Assembly: GCF_013122565.1 (NCBI RefSeq)
Contig: NZ_CP053258.1
DNA: 64,000 nucleotides
Strand: one strand, 5' to 3'
From: Escherichia coli
GTDB lineage: Bacteria > Pseudomonadota > Gammaproteobacteria > Enterobacterales > Enterobacteriaceae
The stretch's first letter is position 1, and every line of letters begins with the position of its first letter. Under the pieces are notes generated by a model that saw only the letters and a program-made list of their open reading frames with translations, did no database searches and had not been told where the DNA came from. Positions 1,533 through 50,371 of this stretch are shown here, piece by piece. Made by a program: the position numbers and the translations under genes.

Positions 1533-2672
1533 ATGAGCGCGGGAAGCCCAAAATTCACCGTTCGCCGCATTGCGGCATTGTCACTGGTTTCGCTATGGCT
1601 GGCAGGCTGTTCTGACACTTCAAATCCACCAGCACCGGTCAGCTCCGTTAATGGCAATGCGCCTGCAAATACCAATTCTGGTATGTTGATTACGCCGCCG
1701 CCGAAAATGGGGACGACGTCTACAGCGCAGCAACCGCAAATTCAGCCGGTGCAGCAGCCACAAATTCAGGCTACTCAACAACCGCAAATCCAGCCAGTGC
1801 AGCCAGTAGCTCAGCAGCCGGTACAGATGGAAAACGGACGCATCGTCTATAACCGTCAGTATGGGAACATTCCGAAAGGCAGTTATAGCGGCAGTACCTA
1901 TACCGTGAAAAAAGGCGACACGCTTTTCTATATCGCCTGGATAACTGGCAACGATTTCCGTGACCTTGCTCAGCGCAACAATATTCAGGCACCATACGCG
2001 CTGAACGTCGGTCAGACCTTACAGGTGGGTAATGCTTCCGGTACGCCAATCACTGGCGGAAATGCCATTACCCAGGCCGACGCAGCAGAGCAAGGAGTTG
2101 TGATCAAGCCTGCACAAAATTCCACCGTTGCTGTTGCGTCGCAACCGACAATTACGTATTCTGAGTCTTCGGGTGAACAGAGTGCTAACAAAATGTTGCC
2201 GAACAACAAGCCAACTGCGACCACGGTCACAGCGCCTGTAACGGTACCAACAGCAAGCACAACCGAGCCGACTGTCAGCAGTACATCAACCAGTACGCCT
2301 ATCTCCACCTGGCGCTGGCCGACTGAGGGCAAAGTGATCGAAACCTTTGGCGCTTCTGAGGGGGGCAACAAGGGGATTGATATCGCAGGCAGCAAAGGAC
2401 AGGCAATTATCGCGACCGCAGATGGCCGCGTTGTTTATGCCGGTAACGCGCTGCGCGGCTACGGTAATCTGATTATCATCAAACATAATGATGATTACCT
2501 GAGTGCCTACGCCCATAACGACACAATGCTGGTCCGGGAACAACAAGAAGTGAAGGCGGGGCAAAAAATAGCAACCATGGGTAGCACCGGAACCAGTTCA
2601 ACACGCTTGCATTTTGAAATTCGTTACAAGGGGAAATCCGTAAACCCGCTGCGTTATTTGCCGCAGCGATAA
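1533..2672 (+). CDS. nlpD: Murein hydrolase activator lipoprotein NlpD (lipobox, Q/P-rich repeat linker, LysM, M23 peptidase domain)
   Basis: 379-aa ORF; signal peptide with LAGCS lipobox; LysM-like and M23 segments; immediately upstream of rpoS. Confidence 0.93.
2134..2162 (+). promoter_or_regulatory. Candidate major rpoS promoter inside nlpD (-35 TTGCGT, 17-nt spacer, -10 TATTCT), giving a roughly 565-nt leader
   Basis: Hexamers read directly; predicted start about 566 nt upstream of the rpoS ATG, consistent with the long rpoS leader known to originate within nlpD. Confidence 0.55.
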
Positions 2673-10320: not shown

Positions 10321-10674
10321 ATGTCCGGCAAGCGTATCTCTCGTGAAAAACTGACGATTAAAAAAATGATCGATCTTTATCAAGCGAAATGCCCGCAGGC
10401 GTCAGCGGAGCCGGAGCATTACGAGGCGTTGTTTGTTTACGCGCAAAAGCGGCTGGATAAATGTGTGTTCGGCGAACAGAAACCAGCCTGTAAGCAGTGT
10501 CCGGTGCACTGTTACCAGCCTGCAAAGCGTGAAGAGATGAAACAGATTATGCGTTGGGCCGGGCCGAGAATGCTGTGGCGTCATCCGATCTTAACCGTGC
10601 GTCATCTCATTGATGACAAGCGTCCGGTGCCAGAACTGCCGGAAAAATATCGTCCGAAAAAACCTCGTGAATAG
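10321..10674 (+). CDS. ygbA: Nitrous-oxide-stimulated promoter family protein YgbA
   Basis: 117-aa Cys-rich ORF between mutS and fhlA. Confidence 0.85.
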   Translation: MSGKRISREKLTIKKMIDLYQAKCPQASAEPEHYEALFVYAQKRLDKCVFGEQKPACKQCPVHCYQPAKREEMKQIMRWAGPRMLWRHPILTVRHLIDDKRPVPELPEKYRPKKPRE

Positions 10675-48297: not shown

Positions 48298-48483
48298 ATG
48301 CTGATTCTGACTCGTCGAGTTGGTGAGACCCTCATGATTGGGGATGAGGTCACCGTGACAGTTTTAGGGGTAAAGGGCAACCAGGTACGTATTGGCGTAA
48401 ATGCCCCGAAGGAAGTTTCTGTTCACCGTGAAGAGATCTACCAGCGTATCCAGGCTGAAAAATCCCAGCAGTCCAGTTACTAA
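48298..48483 (+). CDS. csrA: Carbon storage regulator CsrA
   Basis: 61-aa [51 protein letters not shown]. Confidence 0.98.
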
Positions 48484-48708: not shown

Positions 48709-48736
48709 TTGACTTATAAGTCTCAGAAAGTAATAT
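48709..48736 (+). promoter_or_regulatory. Promoter of the serV-argVYZQ tRNA operon (-35 TTGACT, 16-nt spacer, -10 TAATAT, GC-rich discriminator)
   Basis: Consensus-like hexamers with A-rich upstream tract and GCGCCACGC discriminator typical of stringently controlled stable-RNA promoters. Confidence 0.7.
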
Positions 48737-48798: not shown

Positions 48799-48891
48799 GG
48801 TGAGGTGGCCGAGAGGCTGAAGGCGCTCCCCTGCTAAGGGAGTATGCGGTTAAAAGCTGCATCCGGGGTTCGAATCCCCGCCTCACCGCCA
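48799..48891 (+). tRNA. serV: tRNA-Ser (anticodon GCU), long variable arm, encoded CCA
   Basis: GGTGAGGTGGCCGAGAGG...CTGCTAA anticodon loop...GGTTCGAATCC T-arm...CACCGCCA. Confidence 0.95.
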
Positions 48892-48894
48892 TTT

Positions 48895-48971
48895 GCATCC
48901 GTAGCTCAGCTGGATAGAGTACTCGGCTACGAACCGAGCGGTCGGAGGTTCGAATCCTCCCGGATGCACCA
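48895..48971 (+). tRNA. argV: tRNA-Arg (anticodon ACG), copy 1
   Basis: GCATCCGTAGCTCAGCTGGATAGAGTACTCGGCTACGAACCGAGCGGTCGGAGGTTCGAATCCTCCCGGATGCACCA. Confidence 0.95.
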
Positions 48972-49105
48972 TATTCTACGTACTTTCAGCGATGAAGGTA
49001 TGGAAGAGGTGGCGGTAATAACCGCAGGCACCAGGGAGGATAACGTTGCTTTAGCAACGGCCCGAAGGGCGAGCCGCAAGGCGAGTAATCCTCCCGGATG
49101 CACCA
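48972..49105 (+). repeat. Spacer unit A (about 134 nt) ending in a pseudo-copy of the tRNA-Arg 3' end (AATCCTCCCGGATGCACCA); second copy at 49525-49657
   Basis: Two copies of roughly 85% identity by eye, both ending in the last 18-19 nt of tRNA-Arg; internal hairpins retained in both. Confidence 0.8.
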
Positions 49106-49169
49106 TCTCTTACTTGATACGGCTTTAGTAGCGGTATCAAAAAATCTGCAGTAAAGTAAGTTTCCCGAT

Positions 49170-49246
49170 GCATCCGTAGCTCAGCTGGATAGAGTACTCG
49201 GCTACGAACCGAGCGGTCGGAGGTTCGAATCCTCCCGGATGCACCA
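49170..49246 (+). tRNA. argY: tRNA-Arg (ACG), copy 2
   Basis: Identical 77-nt tRNA-Arg sequence. Confidence 0.95.
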
Positions 49247-49308
49247 TCTCTTACTTGATATGGCTTTAGTAGCGGTATCAATATCAGCAGTAAAATAAAT
49301 TTTCCGAT

Positions 49309-49385
49309 GCATCCGTAGCTCAGCTGGATAGAGTACTCGGCTACGAACCGAGCGGTCGGAGGTTCGAATCCTCCCGGATGCACCA
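49309..49385 (+). tRNA. argZ: tRNA-Arg (ACG), copy 3
   Basis: Identical 77-nt tRNA-Arg sequence. Confidence 0.95.
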
Positions 49386-49447
49386 TCTCTTAATTGATAT
49401 GGCTTTAGTAGCGGTATCAATATCAGCAGTAAAATAAATTTCCCGAT

Positions 49448-49524
49448 GCATCCGTAGCTCAGCTGGATAGAGTACTCGGCTACGAACCGAGCGGTCGGAG
49501 GTTCGAATCCTCCCGGATGCACCA
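49448..49524 (+). tRNA. argQ: tRNA-Arg (ACG), copy 4
   Basis: Identical 77-nt tRNA-Arg sequence. Confidence 0.95.
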
Positions 49525-49657
49525 TATTCTCCGAAATCTTCAGCAATGAAGGTATCGAAGAGGTAGCGGAATTAACCGCAGGCACCAGGGAGGATAACGT
49601 TGCGCCAGCAACGGTCCGAAGGGCGAACGCCAGTGAGTCATCCTCCCGGATGCACCA
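49525..49657 (+). repeat. Spacer unit A, second copy, downstream of the last tRNA-Arg
   Basis: See 48972-49105; ends in ATCCTCCCGGATGCACCA. Confidence 0.8.
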
Positions 49658-49804
49658 TCTTCTCCCAAAAATTTCCTTCAAAAATATCTCATTTCTAAAT
49701 AACTACTTTATCCATTTCCTGAATTTTCTTCTCCTTCTCCATCAGCGACAAAATCAAGCAATTACGCTAAAGTAGCGTCATATTTTTCGACTTGCGAGAA
49801 GACC

Positions 49805-50371
49805 ATGTACGAGCGTTATGCAGGTTTAATTTTTGATATGGATGGCACAATCCTGGATACGGAGCCTACGCACCGTAAAGCGTGGCGCGAAGTATTAGGG
49901 CACTACGGTCTTCAGTACGATGTTCAGGCAATGATTGCGCTTAATGGCTCGCCCACCTGGCGTATTGCTCAGGCGATTATTGAGCTGAATCAGGCCGATC
50001 TCGACCCGCATGCGTTAGCGCGTGAAAAAACAGAAGCAGTAAGAAGTATGCTGCTGGATAGTGTCGAGCCGCTTCCTCTTGTTGAAGTGGTGAAAAGTTG
50101 GCATGGTCGTCGCCCAATGGCTGTAGGAACGGGGAGTGAAAGCGCCATCGCTGAGGCATTGCTGGCGCATCTGGGATTACGCCGTTATTTTGACGCTGTC
50201 GTCGCTGCTGATCACGTCAAACACCATAAACCCGCGCCAGACACATTTTTGTTGTGCGCGCAGCGTATGGGCGTGCAACCGACACAGTGTGTGGTCTTTG
50301 AAGATGCCGATTTCGGTATTCAGGCGGCCCGTGCAGCAGGCATGGACGCTGTGGATGTTCGCTTGCTGTGA
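49805..50371 (+). CDS. yqaB: HAD-family sugar phosphatase YqaB
   Basis: 188-aa ORF with HAD motif I (FDMDGT). Confidence 0.9.
   Translation: MYERYAGLIFDMDGTILDTEPTHRKAWREVLGHYGLQYDVQAMIALNGSPTWRIAQAIIELNQADLDPHALAREKTEAVRSMLLDSVEPLPLVEVVKSWHGRRPMAVGTGSESAIAEALLAHLGLRRYFDAVVAADHVKHHKPAPDTFLLCAQRMGVQPTQCVVFEDADFGIQAARAAGMDAVDVRLL

What the first reader, a model, noticed from the sequence alone, without database searches (positions are those of the whole stretch)
48895..49657. Modular repeat architecture in the arg tRNA cluster with pseudo-copies of the tRNA 3' end
The four identical tRNA-Arg genes are separated by 198, 62 and 62 nt. A roughly 134-nt unit A that ends in a near-exact copy of the last 18-19 nt of tRNA-Arg occurs after copy 1 and again after copy 4. 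A roughly 62-nt unit B precedes copies 2, 3 and 4. The two unit A copies differ mainly in hairpin loops while keeping the stems (GTTGC..GCAAC; GCGG..CCGC), suggesting a structured RNA or processing/termination element rather than neutral spacer. This parallels the known tyrT-distal repeats that also start with the tRNA 3' end. The unequal spacing suggests recombinational gain or loss of units.
Basis: seen in the sequence. Interest (0 to 1): 0.4.

Follow-up and report, generated by a model that had tools for sequence, protein, structure and literature searches.

The report
Known tRNA-linked repeats in arg cluster
The repeated 134-base units between and after the four arginine tRNA genes are real, but they belong to the "tRNA-linked repeats", a family known in E. 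coli since 1978 whose function is still unknown.

Summary
The window holds csrA, then tRNA-Ser and four identical tRNA-Arg(ACG) genes with spacers of 198, 62 and 62 nt, then yqaB. Unit A (48972-49105 and 49525-49657) ends in an exact 19- or 18-nt copy of the tRNA-Arg 3' end. Unit B (64/62/62 nt) precedes copies 2-4.

Unit A is not new. It is a tRNA-linked repeat (TLR; Egan & Landy 1978; Rudd 1999; Stenum et al. 2021, PMC8144298). K-12 has 22 TLRs at ten loci, and its arg copies are named raV, raZ and raQ. The resemblance to the tyrT-distal repeats is homology. Unit A matches Rfam RtT (RF00391) at 34.7 and 26.7 bits, below the cut-off of 45, so pipelines leave it unannotated.

In about 120 loci from other genomes the same core follows tRNA-Tyr, Arg, Lys, Pro, Glu and 5S rRNA genes. 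Each time it is followed by 18-19 nt of that gene's own 3' end.

Covariation supports an RNA fold. The 3' copy pairs with an upstream strand in a 13-bp helix with a free ACCA tail, enclosing three hairpins.

Unit A copy number ranges from 1 to 6 per genome across 5,156 E. coli genomes, and units are lost precisely between the 19-bp repeats.

Function is unproven. My best guess is a mimic of the tRNA 3' end that the tRNA-processing enzymes cut out of the precursor. Interest is low because this is a rediscovery.

The parts
48298..48483 (+). csrA (61 aa), the upstream neighbour. It fixes the locus as csrA / serV-argVYZQ / yqaB.
   Evidence: ORF. The same order is annotated in K-12 and in five other E. 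coli genomes.
48709..48736 (+). Promoter-like site (TTGACT, 16 nt, TAATAT), the probable promoter of the tRNA operon.
   Evidence: Consensus scan only. One site was found against 1.6 expected, so this is weak evidence on its own.
48799..48891 (+). tRNA-Ser(GCT), serV-type.
   Evidence: Rfam tRNA 56.8 bits.
48895..48971 (+). tRNA-Arg(ACG) copy 1 (argV-type).
   Evidence: 67.1 bits.
48972..49105 (+). TLR unit A1 (counterpart of K-12 raV), 134 nt.
   Evidence: Rfam RtT 34.7 bits, E = 1.3e-5. Identical to the K-12 unit in the same position. Fold z = -5.4.
48979..49002 (+). A1 5' hairpin (CGTACTTTCA / TGAAGGTATG).
   Evidence: MFE fold. Other genera have a different sequence that still forms a hairpin here, e.g. 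AACAGC-GAT-GCTGTT.
49012..49025 (+).
   Evidence: All 4 pairs show changes on both sides across genera (helix 1).
49028..49041 (+). A1 closing helix, 5' strand (GCACCAGGGAGGAT). It pairs with the tRNA 3'-end copy.
   Evidence: 13-bp helix in the MFE and consensus folds. 97% paired, with 4 pairs showing compensatory change (helix 2).
49044..49059 (+). A1 hairpin P1 (CGTTGC-TTTA-GCAACG), the invariant part of the family core.
   Evidence: never varies. Shared with the Tyr, Lys, Pro, Glu and 5S-linked units.
49060..49070 (+). A1 hairpin P2 (GCCC-GAA-GGGC), also part of the invariant core.
   Evidence: The core pattern occurs twice in the window against 0.07 expected.
49071..49086 (+). A1 variable hairpin P3 (GCC-GCAA-GGC) flanked by GA...GA.
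   Evidence: helix 5 covaries. Across all types there are 58 distinct P3 sequences. 98 of 124 units have at least 3 end-to-end pairs, against 5 of 124 shuffled. The flanking pair is C-G in 92 units, U-A in 28 and U-G in 3.
49087..49105 (+). A1 copy of the last 19 nt of tRNA-Arg (AATCCTCCCGGATGCACCA). Positions 49088-49101 are the 3' strand of the closing helix and ACCA is left unpaired.
49106..49169 (+). Unit B1 (64 nt), an ordinary inter-tRNA spacer or leader with a small hairpin.
   Evidence: Fold z = -2.1.
49170..49246 (+). tRNA-Arg(ACG) copy 2.
49247..49308 (+). Unit B2 (62 nt).
49309..49385 (+). tRNA-Arg(ACG) copy 3.
49386..49447 (+). Unit B3 (62 nt).
49448..49524 (+). tRNA-Arg(ACG) copy 4.
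49525..49657 (+). TLR unit A2 (terminal unit, counterpart of K-12 raQ), 133 nt. Closing helix 49582-49595 / 49640-49653, P1 49598-49613, 18-nt tRNA 3' copy 49640-49657.
   Evidence: Rfam RtT 26.7 bits, E = 1.3e-3. Fold z = -4.9. Helix coordinates. A terminal unit is present in all seven E. coli architectures inspected.
49658..49763 (+). C-rich, G-poor tail after the last TLR. It could be a Rho-loading region; this is inference only.
   Evidence: GC skew is -0.77 at 49650-49749. The Rho reading is an analogy, from memory, with Rho-dependent termination at tyrT.
49764..49788 (+). Weak intrinsic terminator-like hairpin (ACGCTA-AAG-TAGCGT) followed by CATATTTTTC, just before the yqaB ATG at 49807.
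   Evidence: 1 site found against 1.5 expected by chance.

Best explanation
Unit A is a tRNA-linked repeat (TLR). These are the arg-cluster members that EcoGene and K-12 workers call raV, raZ and raQ. It is a diverged relative of the tyrT-distal rtT repeats.

Shown here:
- The unit lies inside the serV-argVYZQ cluster, on the tRNA strand.
- It carries the family core: an invariant hairpin CGUUGC-N4-GCAACG, then GCCC-GAA-GGGC, then a variable hairpin framed by GA/GA.
- That 3' copy is paired with a complementary strand about 50 nt upstream (GCACCAGGGAGGAU / AUCCUCCCGGAUGC). This gives a long helix with a free ACCA tail that closes a four-way junction. The piece from 49028 to 49105 is 78 nt, about the size of a tRNA.
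- When the tRNA acceptor or T stem differs between genera, both the TLR copy and its pairing strand change with it.

Inferred:
- The unit is transcribed with the tRNAs.
- Its 3' end and the bases that follow it look the same as at a genuine tRNA-Arg 3' end. RNase E, and then the 3' exonucleases, should therefore cut behind it as they cut behind the tRNA. RNase P may also recognise the acceptor/T-arm-like helix.
- The TLR would then be released as a discrete by-product, and the next tRNA would start with the usual leader (unit B).

At the DNA level, the 19-bp direct repeats and the identical tRNA genes are substrates for unequal recombination. That explains the 198/62/62 layout here against 198/62/198 in K-12 and 64/62/63 elsewhere.

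The benefit to the cell, if there is one, is unknown. A plausible role for the terminal unit, which was present in all seven architectures inspected, is to provide a defined processing point that separates the last tRNA from a ragged operon 3' end.
For: Identity:
- Stenum et al. 2021 define TLRs by the 18-19 bp 3'-end identity and cite 22 copies at ten K-12 loci.
- Their strain table lists raQ/Z/V inside the argY/Z/Q deletion.
- The K-12 locus has the same units at the same places.
- Rfam RtT matches unit A at E = 1.3e-5 and 1.3e-3. The four tyrT units score 133-137 bits.

Family rule:
- In 129 core hits with an upstream tRNA, the tRNA's own last 17 nt recur exactly in 16/19 Arg(ACG), 39/46 Tyr, 30/40 Lys, 5/8 Pro and 2/3 Glu units. 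Ten further hits carry the 5S rRNA 3' end.
- The run of identity is 18 or 19 nt in all but three of 94 units.

Structure:
- Fold z-scores are -5.4 and -4.9.
- 96.9% of cells are paired and 10 pairs are compensatory; 0 of 500 shuffles reach this, and slid controls reach at most 51.5%.
- G-U pairs in the closing helix fit only the tRNA-sense strand.
- A unit's own 3' copy pairs with its upstream region better than any other type's copy in 16/18 Arg and 33/40 Tyr units.
- Hafnia, Yersinia and L095 tRNA variants are mirrored in their TLR copies.

Processing precedent:
- For the rrnB TLR (RrB), the 5' end maps to the RNase E site 3 nt after 5S and the 3' end maps 3 nt after the repeat.

Recombination:
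-.
Against: - No expression or end-mapping data for the arg units were available to me.
- Hairpins P1 and P2 never vary, so they give no covariation evidence. Their invariance could reflect a sequence-specific partner rather than a fold.
- A K-12 strain with all 22 TLRs deleted was constructed, so TLRs are not essential.
- Natural E. coli carry 0, 1 or 2 internal A units, so internal copies at least are dispensable.
- In other genera many TLRs sit behind an intrinsic terminator. This is an odd place for an RNA that has to be made in quantity.
- The closing helix is type-specific in only 19/36 Lys-linked units, and is not convincingly so for Pro or Glu.
- The sequences compared are related to one another, so the shuffle statistics overstate independence.
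Confidence: 0.8

Rival explanations
1. Trans-acting small RNA. Once excised, the arg TLR would bind a regulator or another RNA, as proposed for the rrn-linked TLRs RrA/B/F, which bind Hfq and CsrA in vitro. This is compatible with the processing model and adds a function to it.
For: RrA/B/F are TLRs that are transcribed, processed and pulled down with Hfq and CsrA. The core is strongly conserved across orders. The arg cluster lies directly downstream of csrA.
Against: The same paper reports that the 19 tRNA-operon TLRs all scored below 0.01 with a predictor of CsrA-binding sRNAs. Deleting rrA, rrB and rrF had only modest effects. Internal arg units come and go between strains. No target is known.
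Confidence: 0.12
2. Relic or miniature version of a site-specific integrative element. The two copies of the tRNA 3' end would be attL and attR, and unit A would be what remains of the element, or a non-autonomous element mobilised in trans.
For: An 18-19 nt direct repeat that starts in the T loop is the typical geometry of tRNA-targeting integrases (established knowledge). The same core is found beside at least six different stable-RNA genes, often in tandem arrays.
Against: There is no integrase and no credible ORF. No phage record carries the core. The only 'phage' hits are host chromosome pieces, including an unverified contig that is really the Salmonella tRNA-Pro(CGG) locus. The 'plasmid' hits are mis-filed chromosomes. 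Compensatory and G-U changes point to selection on a folded tRNA-sense strand. 5S rRNA is not a known integrase target.
Confidence: 0.06
3. Decayed tRNA-Arg gene copy, that is, neutral spacer left by tandem duplication. Only the 3' end would be kept similar, through gene conversion from the neighbouring genes.
For: The Yersinia nurmii Arg-linked unit holds an exact 23-nt copy of tRNA-Arg from the anticodon loop to the T loop. The tyrT units hold CTTCGAccAAGGTTCGA. In the E. coli lys operon the Rfam RtT model aligns its 5' half onto a real tRNA-Lys.
Against: The 5' part of unit A is not significantly similar to tRNA-Arg (z = 0.45 and -0.36). Neither ARAGORN nor the Rfam tRNA model calls it a tRNA. 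Independent decay cannot produce the same ~45-nt core behind Tyr, Lys, Pro, Glu, Arg and 5S genes. Covariation argues against neutrality.
Confidence: 0.05
4. Transcription terminator or attenuator of the tRNA operon.
For: The unit has GC-rich hairpins. A unit always sits at the operon end. The tyrT repeats are associated with Rho-dependent termination (from memory).
Against: No hairpin in unit A is followed by a T run. The only terminator-like site in the region is 49764-49778. The internal unit A1 is followed by three more tRNA genes that must be transcribed.
Confidence: 0.03

Closest known systems
tRNA-linked repeats (TLRs) of E. coli (Egan & Landy 1978; Rudd 1999; Stenum et al. 2021, PMC8144298), specifically raV / raZ / raQ of the serV-argVYZQ operon
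   Same: Same locus, same units and same hallmark: 18-19 nt identical to the 3' end of the upstream tRNA. A1 is identical to the first K-12 unit.
   Different: Only the copy arrangement differs. The window has two units (after copies 1 and 4), while K-12 has three (after copies 1, 3 and 4). Unit B is not part of the TLR.
rtT RNA / tyrT-distal 178-bp repeats (rttR; Rfam RtT RF00391)
   Same: Shared core AACGTTGC-loop-GCAACGGCCCGAAGGGCGAG-hairpin-GAGTAATCC followed by the tRNA 3' end. Same position downstream of tandem tRNA genes. An outer helix uses the 3' copy.
   Different: Unit A lacks the 5' half of the RtT model (the CUUCGAccAAGGUUCGA and GAGCG..CGAG hairpins) and has two unrelated 5' hairpins instead. 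It scores 27-35 bits against the cut-off of 45. Its 3' copy is of tRNA-Arg, not tRNA-Tyr. It has no tpr-like ORF.
RrA / RrB / RrF, the TLRs between terminators T1 and T2 of rrnA, rrnB and rrnD
   Same: Same core (GAACGTTGCGAAGCAACGGCCCGGAGGGTG in K-12 rrnB) followed by a copy of the 3' end of the upstream stable RNA.
   Different: These are linked to 5S rRNA, lie behind an intrinsic terminator, and carry GGA motifs that bind CsrA in vitro. The tRNA-linked members scored below 0.01 for CsrA binding. Rfam RtT does not detect the 5S-linked type at E < 0.01.
3' external transcribed spacer sRNA of glyW-cysT-leuZ (3'ETS-leuZ)
   Same: An RNA released from a tRNA precursor by RNase E processing (as summarised).
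   Different: It has no copy of the tRNA 3' end and no shared core. It acts by base-pairing with RyhB and RybB. There is no evidence of such pairing for unit A.

Membership tests
tRNA-linked repeats (TLR) | Lies in a tRNA or rRNA operon, immediately downstream of a stable-RNA gene and on the same strand. | tested here: met
   A1 starts 1 nt after tRNA-Arg copy 1 and A2 starts 1 nt after copy 4.
tRNA-linked repeats (TLR) | The last 18-19 nt are identical to the 3' end of the upstream tRNA or rRNA gene. | tested here: met
   19/19 nt in A1 and 18/19 nt in A2. The 18-mer occurs 6 times in the window against 0 expected.
tRNA-linked repeats (TLR) | Sequence homology with other TLRs (shared core). 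| tested here: met
   The core pattern is shared with Tyr-, Lys-, Pro-, Glu- and 5S-linked units.
tRNA-linked repeats (TLR) | Corresponds to catalogued K-12 members (raV / raZ / raQ). | tested here: met
   The K-12 locus has the same units. raQ/Z/V are listed within the argY/Z/Q deletion interval. Rudd 1999 itself could not be read.
tRNA-linked repeats (TLR) | Transcribed and processed from the operon precursor. | not testable with these tools
   This has been shown only for the rrn TLRs and for rtT in the literature.
Rfam RtT (RF00391) | Bit score at or above the curated gathering score of 45. | tested here: not met
   29.2 / 34.7 bits for A1 and 23.1 / 26.7 bits for A2. Arg(ACG)-linked units of Enterobacter score 36.7 and 37.8 bits.
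Rfam RtT (RF00391) | Match to the whole 130-position model, including its 5' hairpins. | tested here: not met
   Only model positions 46-130 align convincingly, with a 55-60 nt unaligned insertion on the 5' side.
Integrative-element attachment-site remnant | Direct repeat of the tRNA 3' end flanking the inserted DNA. | tested here: met
Integrative-element attachment-site remnant | An integrase or element genes, or the same DNA present in phages or plasmids. | tested here: not met
   No credible ORF. Phage and plasmid hits are all chromosomal DNA.
tRNA gene or pseudogene | Cloverleaf recognised by tRNA models, or significant similarity to tRNA-Arg beyond the 3' end. | tested here: not met
   No ARAGORN or Rfam tRNA call inside A. 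Alignment z = 0.45 and -0.36.
Intrinsic terminator | GC-rich hairpin followed by a T run. | tested here: not met
   No such site inside A or B. The only one lies at 49764-49778.

The most novel reading that the evidence does not exclude
TLRs, including the arg units, may be purpose-built mimics of the acceptor/T-arm half of their host tRNA. They would be tRNA-sized, four-way-junction RNAs with a free NCCA end. As competitor or decoy substrates for the tRNA 3'-end machinery (RNase E/P, RNase T/PH, poly(A) polymerase, CCA-adding enzyme), they would buffer maturation of very highly expressed tRNAs and 5S rRNA. The module would spread between stable-RNA genes by acquiring each new host's last 18-19 nt. 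Neither idea is stated in the one paper on the family that I could read. I could not read Rudd 1999.
Probability: 0.12. Interest if true: 0.55.

Novelty: already known. Interest (0 to 1): 0.15.

Why it matters
For this finding, little: the arg-cluster units are catalogued TLRs.

There are two practical points:
1. Current annotation pipelines miss them. PGAP shows nothing under the match in the thousands of genomes searched. The Rfam RtT cut-off excludes both the Arg(ACG)-linked and the 5S-linked subtypes.
2. Their copy number, and with it the number of tRNA-Arg(ACG) genes (2 to 4 in the seven loci inspected), varies between E. coli strains through recombination at the repeats. This matters for anyone who uses this locus for tRNA-dosage or TadA-editing work.

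More generally, the function of TLRs has been an open question since 1978. The structural picture assembled here is a paired 3' copy with a free NCCA tail, in which tRNA, copy and pairing strand all vary together. It gives a concrete model that can be tested.

Tried and rejected
- Pseudo-tRNA origin of unit A. A semi-global alignment of its 5' 70 nt to tRNA-Arg is no better than shuffles. I rejected this for the E. coli Arg type, although Yersinia and tyrT units do keep tRNA pieces.
- Phage or plasmid origin. blastn of unit A against 50,697 phage and 72,556 plasmid records returned only chromosomal DNA filed in the wrong collection. The one 'phage' contig is a low-coverage, unverified piece of the Salmonella tRNA-Pro(CGG) locus.
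- Coding potential (tpr-like). The ORFs in the region run through tRNA genes or are not kept between A1 and A2.
- Terminator. There is no hairpin plus T run in A or B.
- Literature. Bosl & Kersten 1991 (PMC329039) is not held. One search was swamped by Rett-syndrome 'RTT' papers. Searches on the arg gene names found no paper about the spacers. Rudd 1999 and Egan & Landy 1978 are not in the library.
- The antisense tRNA-Arg(TCG) call at 48915-48986 is a mirror artefact of copy 1. The Plastid-ycf2 hits are the antisense strands of the tRNA genes.
- I did not scan viral contigs or metagenome contigs. Prophage predictions include host flanks next to tRNA genes, so hits would have been ambiguous.
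Full report
**1. What is in the sequence**

The region lies between csrA (48298-48483) and yqaB (ATG at 49807; annotated under the match in related genomes). ARAGORN and Rfam find tRNA-Ser(GCT) at 48799-48891. They also find four identical 77-nt tRNA-Arg(ACG) genes at 48895-48971, 49170-49246, 49309-49385 and 49448-49524. The spacers are 198, 62 and 62 nt.

The 18-mer ATCCTCCCGGATGCACCA, the end of tRNA-Arg, occurs six times in the 64-kb window: four times in the genes and twice outside them, at 49088-49105 and 49640-49657. No occurrences are expected by chance.

Unit A1 is 48972-49105 and unit A2 is 49525-49657. They are 114/135 identical. Unit B is 64, 62 and 62 nt and precedes copies 2-4.

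One qualification applies.

**2. What it is**

A scan against Rfam matches both A units to RtT (RF00391), the repeat of the tyrT operon. The scores are 34.7 bits (E = 1.3e-5) and 26.7 bits (E = 1.3e-3). Both are below the curated cut-off of 45, and only the 3' two-thirds of the model align. The four K-12 tyrT units score 133-137 bits.

Reading the tyrT locus shows the same design. It has tRNA-Tyr, then a unit ending in the last 19 nt of tRNA-Tyr, then a short spacer, the next tRNA-Tyr and three more units.

The shared core is AACGTTGC-loop-GCAACGGCCCGAAGGGCGAG-hairpin-GAGTAATCC.

**3. The family rule**

I scanned one genome per species (GTDB) for GCAACGRYCCGAAGGGYGA. About a dozen are chance hits in coding DNA of unrelated phyla. 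The rest lie downstream of tRNA-Tyr, Arg(ACG), Arg(CCG), Lys, Pro(TGG and CGG) and Glu genes, or downstream of 5S rRNA.

The upstream tRNA's own last 17 nt recur exactly after the core in these fractions:

| Upstream gene | Units with exact 17-nt copy |
|---|---|
| tRNA-Arg(ACG) | 16/19 |
| tRNA-Tyr | 39/46 |
| tRNA-Lys | 30/40 |
| tRNA-Pro | 5/8 |
| tRNA-Glu | 2/3 |

Ten further hits carry AACTGCCAGGCAT, the 3' end of 5S rRNA. The run of identity is 18 or 19 nt in all but three of 94 units.

The hosts are mostly Enterobacterales, with Gilliamella (Orbales) and the Oceanospirillales genera Marinobacterium and Amphritea. In the last two the copy has partly decayed.

In K-12 rrnB the same core and an 18-nt copy of the 5S 3' end sit between terminators T1 and T2.

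**4. It is already known**

Stenum et al. 2021 (PMC8144298) describe exactly this family as "tRNA-linked repeats (TLRs)". According to that paper:
- The family was first seen by Egan & Landy in 1978 and catalogued by Rudd in 1999.
- K-12 has 22 copies at ten loci.
[quoted passage not shown] - The stringent-response role once claimed for rtT RNA was retracted.

Their strain table lists delta(argY/Z/Q, raQ/Z/V). The arg units therefore have names: raV, raZ and raQ. The K-12 locus carries the same units as the window, with A1 identical.

The finding is a correct rediscovery.

It is absent from current annotation. PGAP shows no feature under the match in any listed genome. Rfam's cut-off admits Pro-, Lys-, Glu- and Arg(CCG)-linked units at 52-95 bits. 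It excludes the Arg(ACG)-linked units at 27-38 bits, and it does not detect the 5S-linked type at E < 0.01.

**5. Structure**

As RNA on the tRNA strand, A1 folds at -60.3 kcal/mol (z = -5.4) and A2 at -52.1 kcal/mol (z = -4.9). The consensus fold of 18 Arg-linked units from E. coli, Enterobacter, Kosakonia, Phytobacter, Brenneria, Hafnia and others has these elements:
- two 5' hairpins;
- a 13-bp helix pairing GCACCAGGGAGGAU with the 3' copy AUCCUCCCGGAUGC;
- an unpaired ACCA tail;
- inside that helix, three hairpins: P1 (CGUUGC/GCAACG), P2 (GCCC/GGGC) and a variable P3.

On this alignment 96.9% of cells are paired, against 92.0 +/- 0.6% in shuffles and at most 51.5% with slid partners. Ten pairs show compensatory change, against 3.5 +/- 1.0 in shuffles, and 0 of 500 shuffles reach that number.

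The GCGG/CCGC stem covaries at all four pairs. P1 and P2 never vary. G-U pairs in the long helix fit only the tRNA-sense strand.

Across all TLR types:
- The pair flanking the tandem GA around P3 is C-G in 92 units, U-A in 28, U-G in 3, U-U in 1, and never C-A.
- P3 has 58 different sequences. 98 of 124 units keep at least 3 terminal pairs, against 5 of 124 after shuffling.

This agrees with the published covariation analysis of Rfam RtT, which found a helix framing a tandem GA (Rivas 2021, PMC8250186).

Where the tRNA-Arg acceptor or T stem differs (Hafnia, Yersinia, L095), the TLR copy carries the same change and its pairing strand compensates. A unit's own 3' copy pairs with its upstream region better than any other type's copy in 16/18 Arg, 33/40 Tyr and 19/36 Lys units.

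The piece from 49028 to 49105 is 78 nt. That is the size of a tRNA, with four helices and an ACCA end. It is not recognised as a tRNA by ARAGORN or by Rfam.

**6. Dynamics**

Seven E. coli loci show different spacings between the tRNA-Arg genes:

| Source | Spacers between tRNA-Arg genes (nt) |
|---|---|
| Window | 198 / 62 / 62 |
| TUM14771 | 198 / 63 / 63 |
| K-12 | 198 / 62 / 198 |
| UTME-7 | 64 / 62 / 198 |
| 4/1-1 | 64 / 62 / 63 |
| RM19259 | 64 / 62 / 102 |
| IPCEC48 | 64 (only two tRNA-Arg genes) |

Further points:
- Where A1 is missing, the first spacer is exactly the 64-nt B1. The 134-nt unit has been lost or gained precisely between the two 19-bp repeats.
- The 102-nt spacer is a truncated unit fused to B.
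- The terminal unit and the ~280-nt tail are present in all seven loci.
- The non-tRNA part of A1 is found in 5,156 of 5,426 complete E. coli genomes, at 10,557 places. There are 1 to 6 places per genome, with a median of 2.

**7. How it probably works**

Shown: position, strand, fold and the joint variation of tRNA, copy and pairing strand.

Inferred: the unit is co-transcribed. It ends like a tRNA and is followed by the same bases as a tRNA. RNase E and the 3' exonucleases should therefore cut behind it as they do behind tRNA-Arg, and RNase P may use the acceptor/T-like helix. The precedent is RrB, whose ends map 3 nt after the 5S 3' end and 3 nt after the repeat.

After A2 comes a C-rich, G-poor tract (GC skew -0.77) and then a weak terminator-like hairpin at 49764-49778. 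The terminal unit may therefore separate the last tRNA from a heterogeneous operon end. This step is speculation.

Against any strong function:
- All 22 TLRs could be deleted together in K-12.
- Internal units vary between natural strains.
- In other genera many TLRs lie behind an intrinsic terminator.

**8. Rivals**

- An integrative-element relic fits the direct repeats. It is contradicted by the lack of any integrase, ORF or phage counterpart and by the RNA-type covariation.
- A decayed tRNA copy fits the Yersinia and tyrT units, which keep tRNA sequence up to the T loop. The E. coli unit has no significant similarity to tRNA-Arg outside the 3' copy, and decay cannot explain a common core.
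- A terminator is excluded by the lack of a T run and by the tRNA genes that follow A1.
- A trans-acting sRNA role cannot be excluded, but there is no evidence for it. It is disfavoured for CsrA binding.

**9. Verdict**

However, it is an already known family member (raV / raQ-type TLRs). Interest is low. What remains open is the 45-year-old question of what TLRs are for.

Noticed in passing
L128 (E. coli K-12 NC_000913.3 4171500-4172300), locus positions 258-470: The classic rrnB T1-T2 terminator region, used in many cloning vectors (the vector use is from memory), contains a TLR. The core GAACGTTGCGAAGCAACGGCCCGGAGGGTG is followed by an 18-nt copy of the 5S rRNA 3' end. This is the published RrB sRNA. 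Rfam RtT does not detect the 5S-linked type (no hit at E < 0.01 in L007).
   Followed up: partly
L015, L022, L038, L120, L081 (Klebsiella, Gilliamella, Pseudescherichia, an unnamed Glu-linked locus, Yersinia): In many genera the TLR unit begins with a strong intrinsic terminator placed directly after the tRNA. The conserved RNA-like element therefore lies behind a terminator, as it does in rrnB. This is hard to reconcile with a need for abundant expression.
   Followed up: no
L081 (Yersinia nurmii) 120-281 on the minus strand; L002 (K-12 tyrT locus): The Yersinia Arg-linked unit holds an exact 23-nt copy of tRNA-Arg (GAACCGAGCGGTCGGAAGTTCGA, from the anticodon loop to the T loop) just before the core. 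The tyrT units hold CTTCGAccAAGGTTCGA. Canonical TLRs thus look like the 3' half of the tRNA interrupted in the T loop by an insert of about 65 nt. The E. coli Arg type has lost this part.
   Followed up: partly
window 49650-49788: A C-rich, G-poor tract (GC skew -0.77) is followed by a weak terminator-like hairpin (49764-49778 plus a T run) immediately upstream of yqaB. It may be a Rho-dependent terminator followed by an intrinsic one for the tRNA operon.
   Followed up: partly
L123 (E. coli RM19259) spacer 3, locus 860-961: A 102-nt spacer consists of the first ~40 nt of a TLR fused to unit B. This is a truncated unit that has lost the core and the 3' copy.
   Followed up: yes
L129 (OR850888.1, 'Salmonella phage S.Kent 1-2-1', UNVERIFIED_ORG) 1268-1515: This 'phage' contig carries tRNA-Pro(CGG), a terminator and a Pro-linked TLR. 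It is almost certainly host chromosomal DNA (the proK-type locus) in a low-coverage assembly, not phage DNA.
   Followed up: yes
window 48915-48986 (- strand): ARAGORN calls an antisense tRNA-Arg(TCG) overlapping tRNA-Arg copy 1. Rfam also gives sub-threshold 'Plastid-ycf2' hits on the antisense strand of all four tRNA genes. Both are mirror-image artefacts.
   Followed up: yes
window 48298-48483 and the TLRs at 48972-49657: csrA lies directly upstream of a TLR-bearing tRNA operon, and the rrn-linked TLRs bind CsrA in vitro. This is probably coincidence, since the published predictor scored tRNA-linked TLRs below 0.01. I did not examine it further.
   Followed up: no
L040 (E. coli lys-val tRNA operon) 2266-2655, minus strand: The short Lys-linked TLRs (99 nt) pass the Rfam RtT cut-off at 55-61 bits only because the model's 5' half aligns onto the preceding real tRNA-Lys. 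Rfam coordinates for these units therefore overlap the tRNA gene.
   Followed up: no
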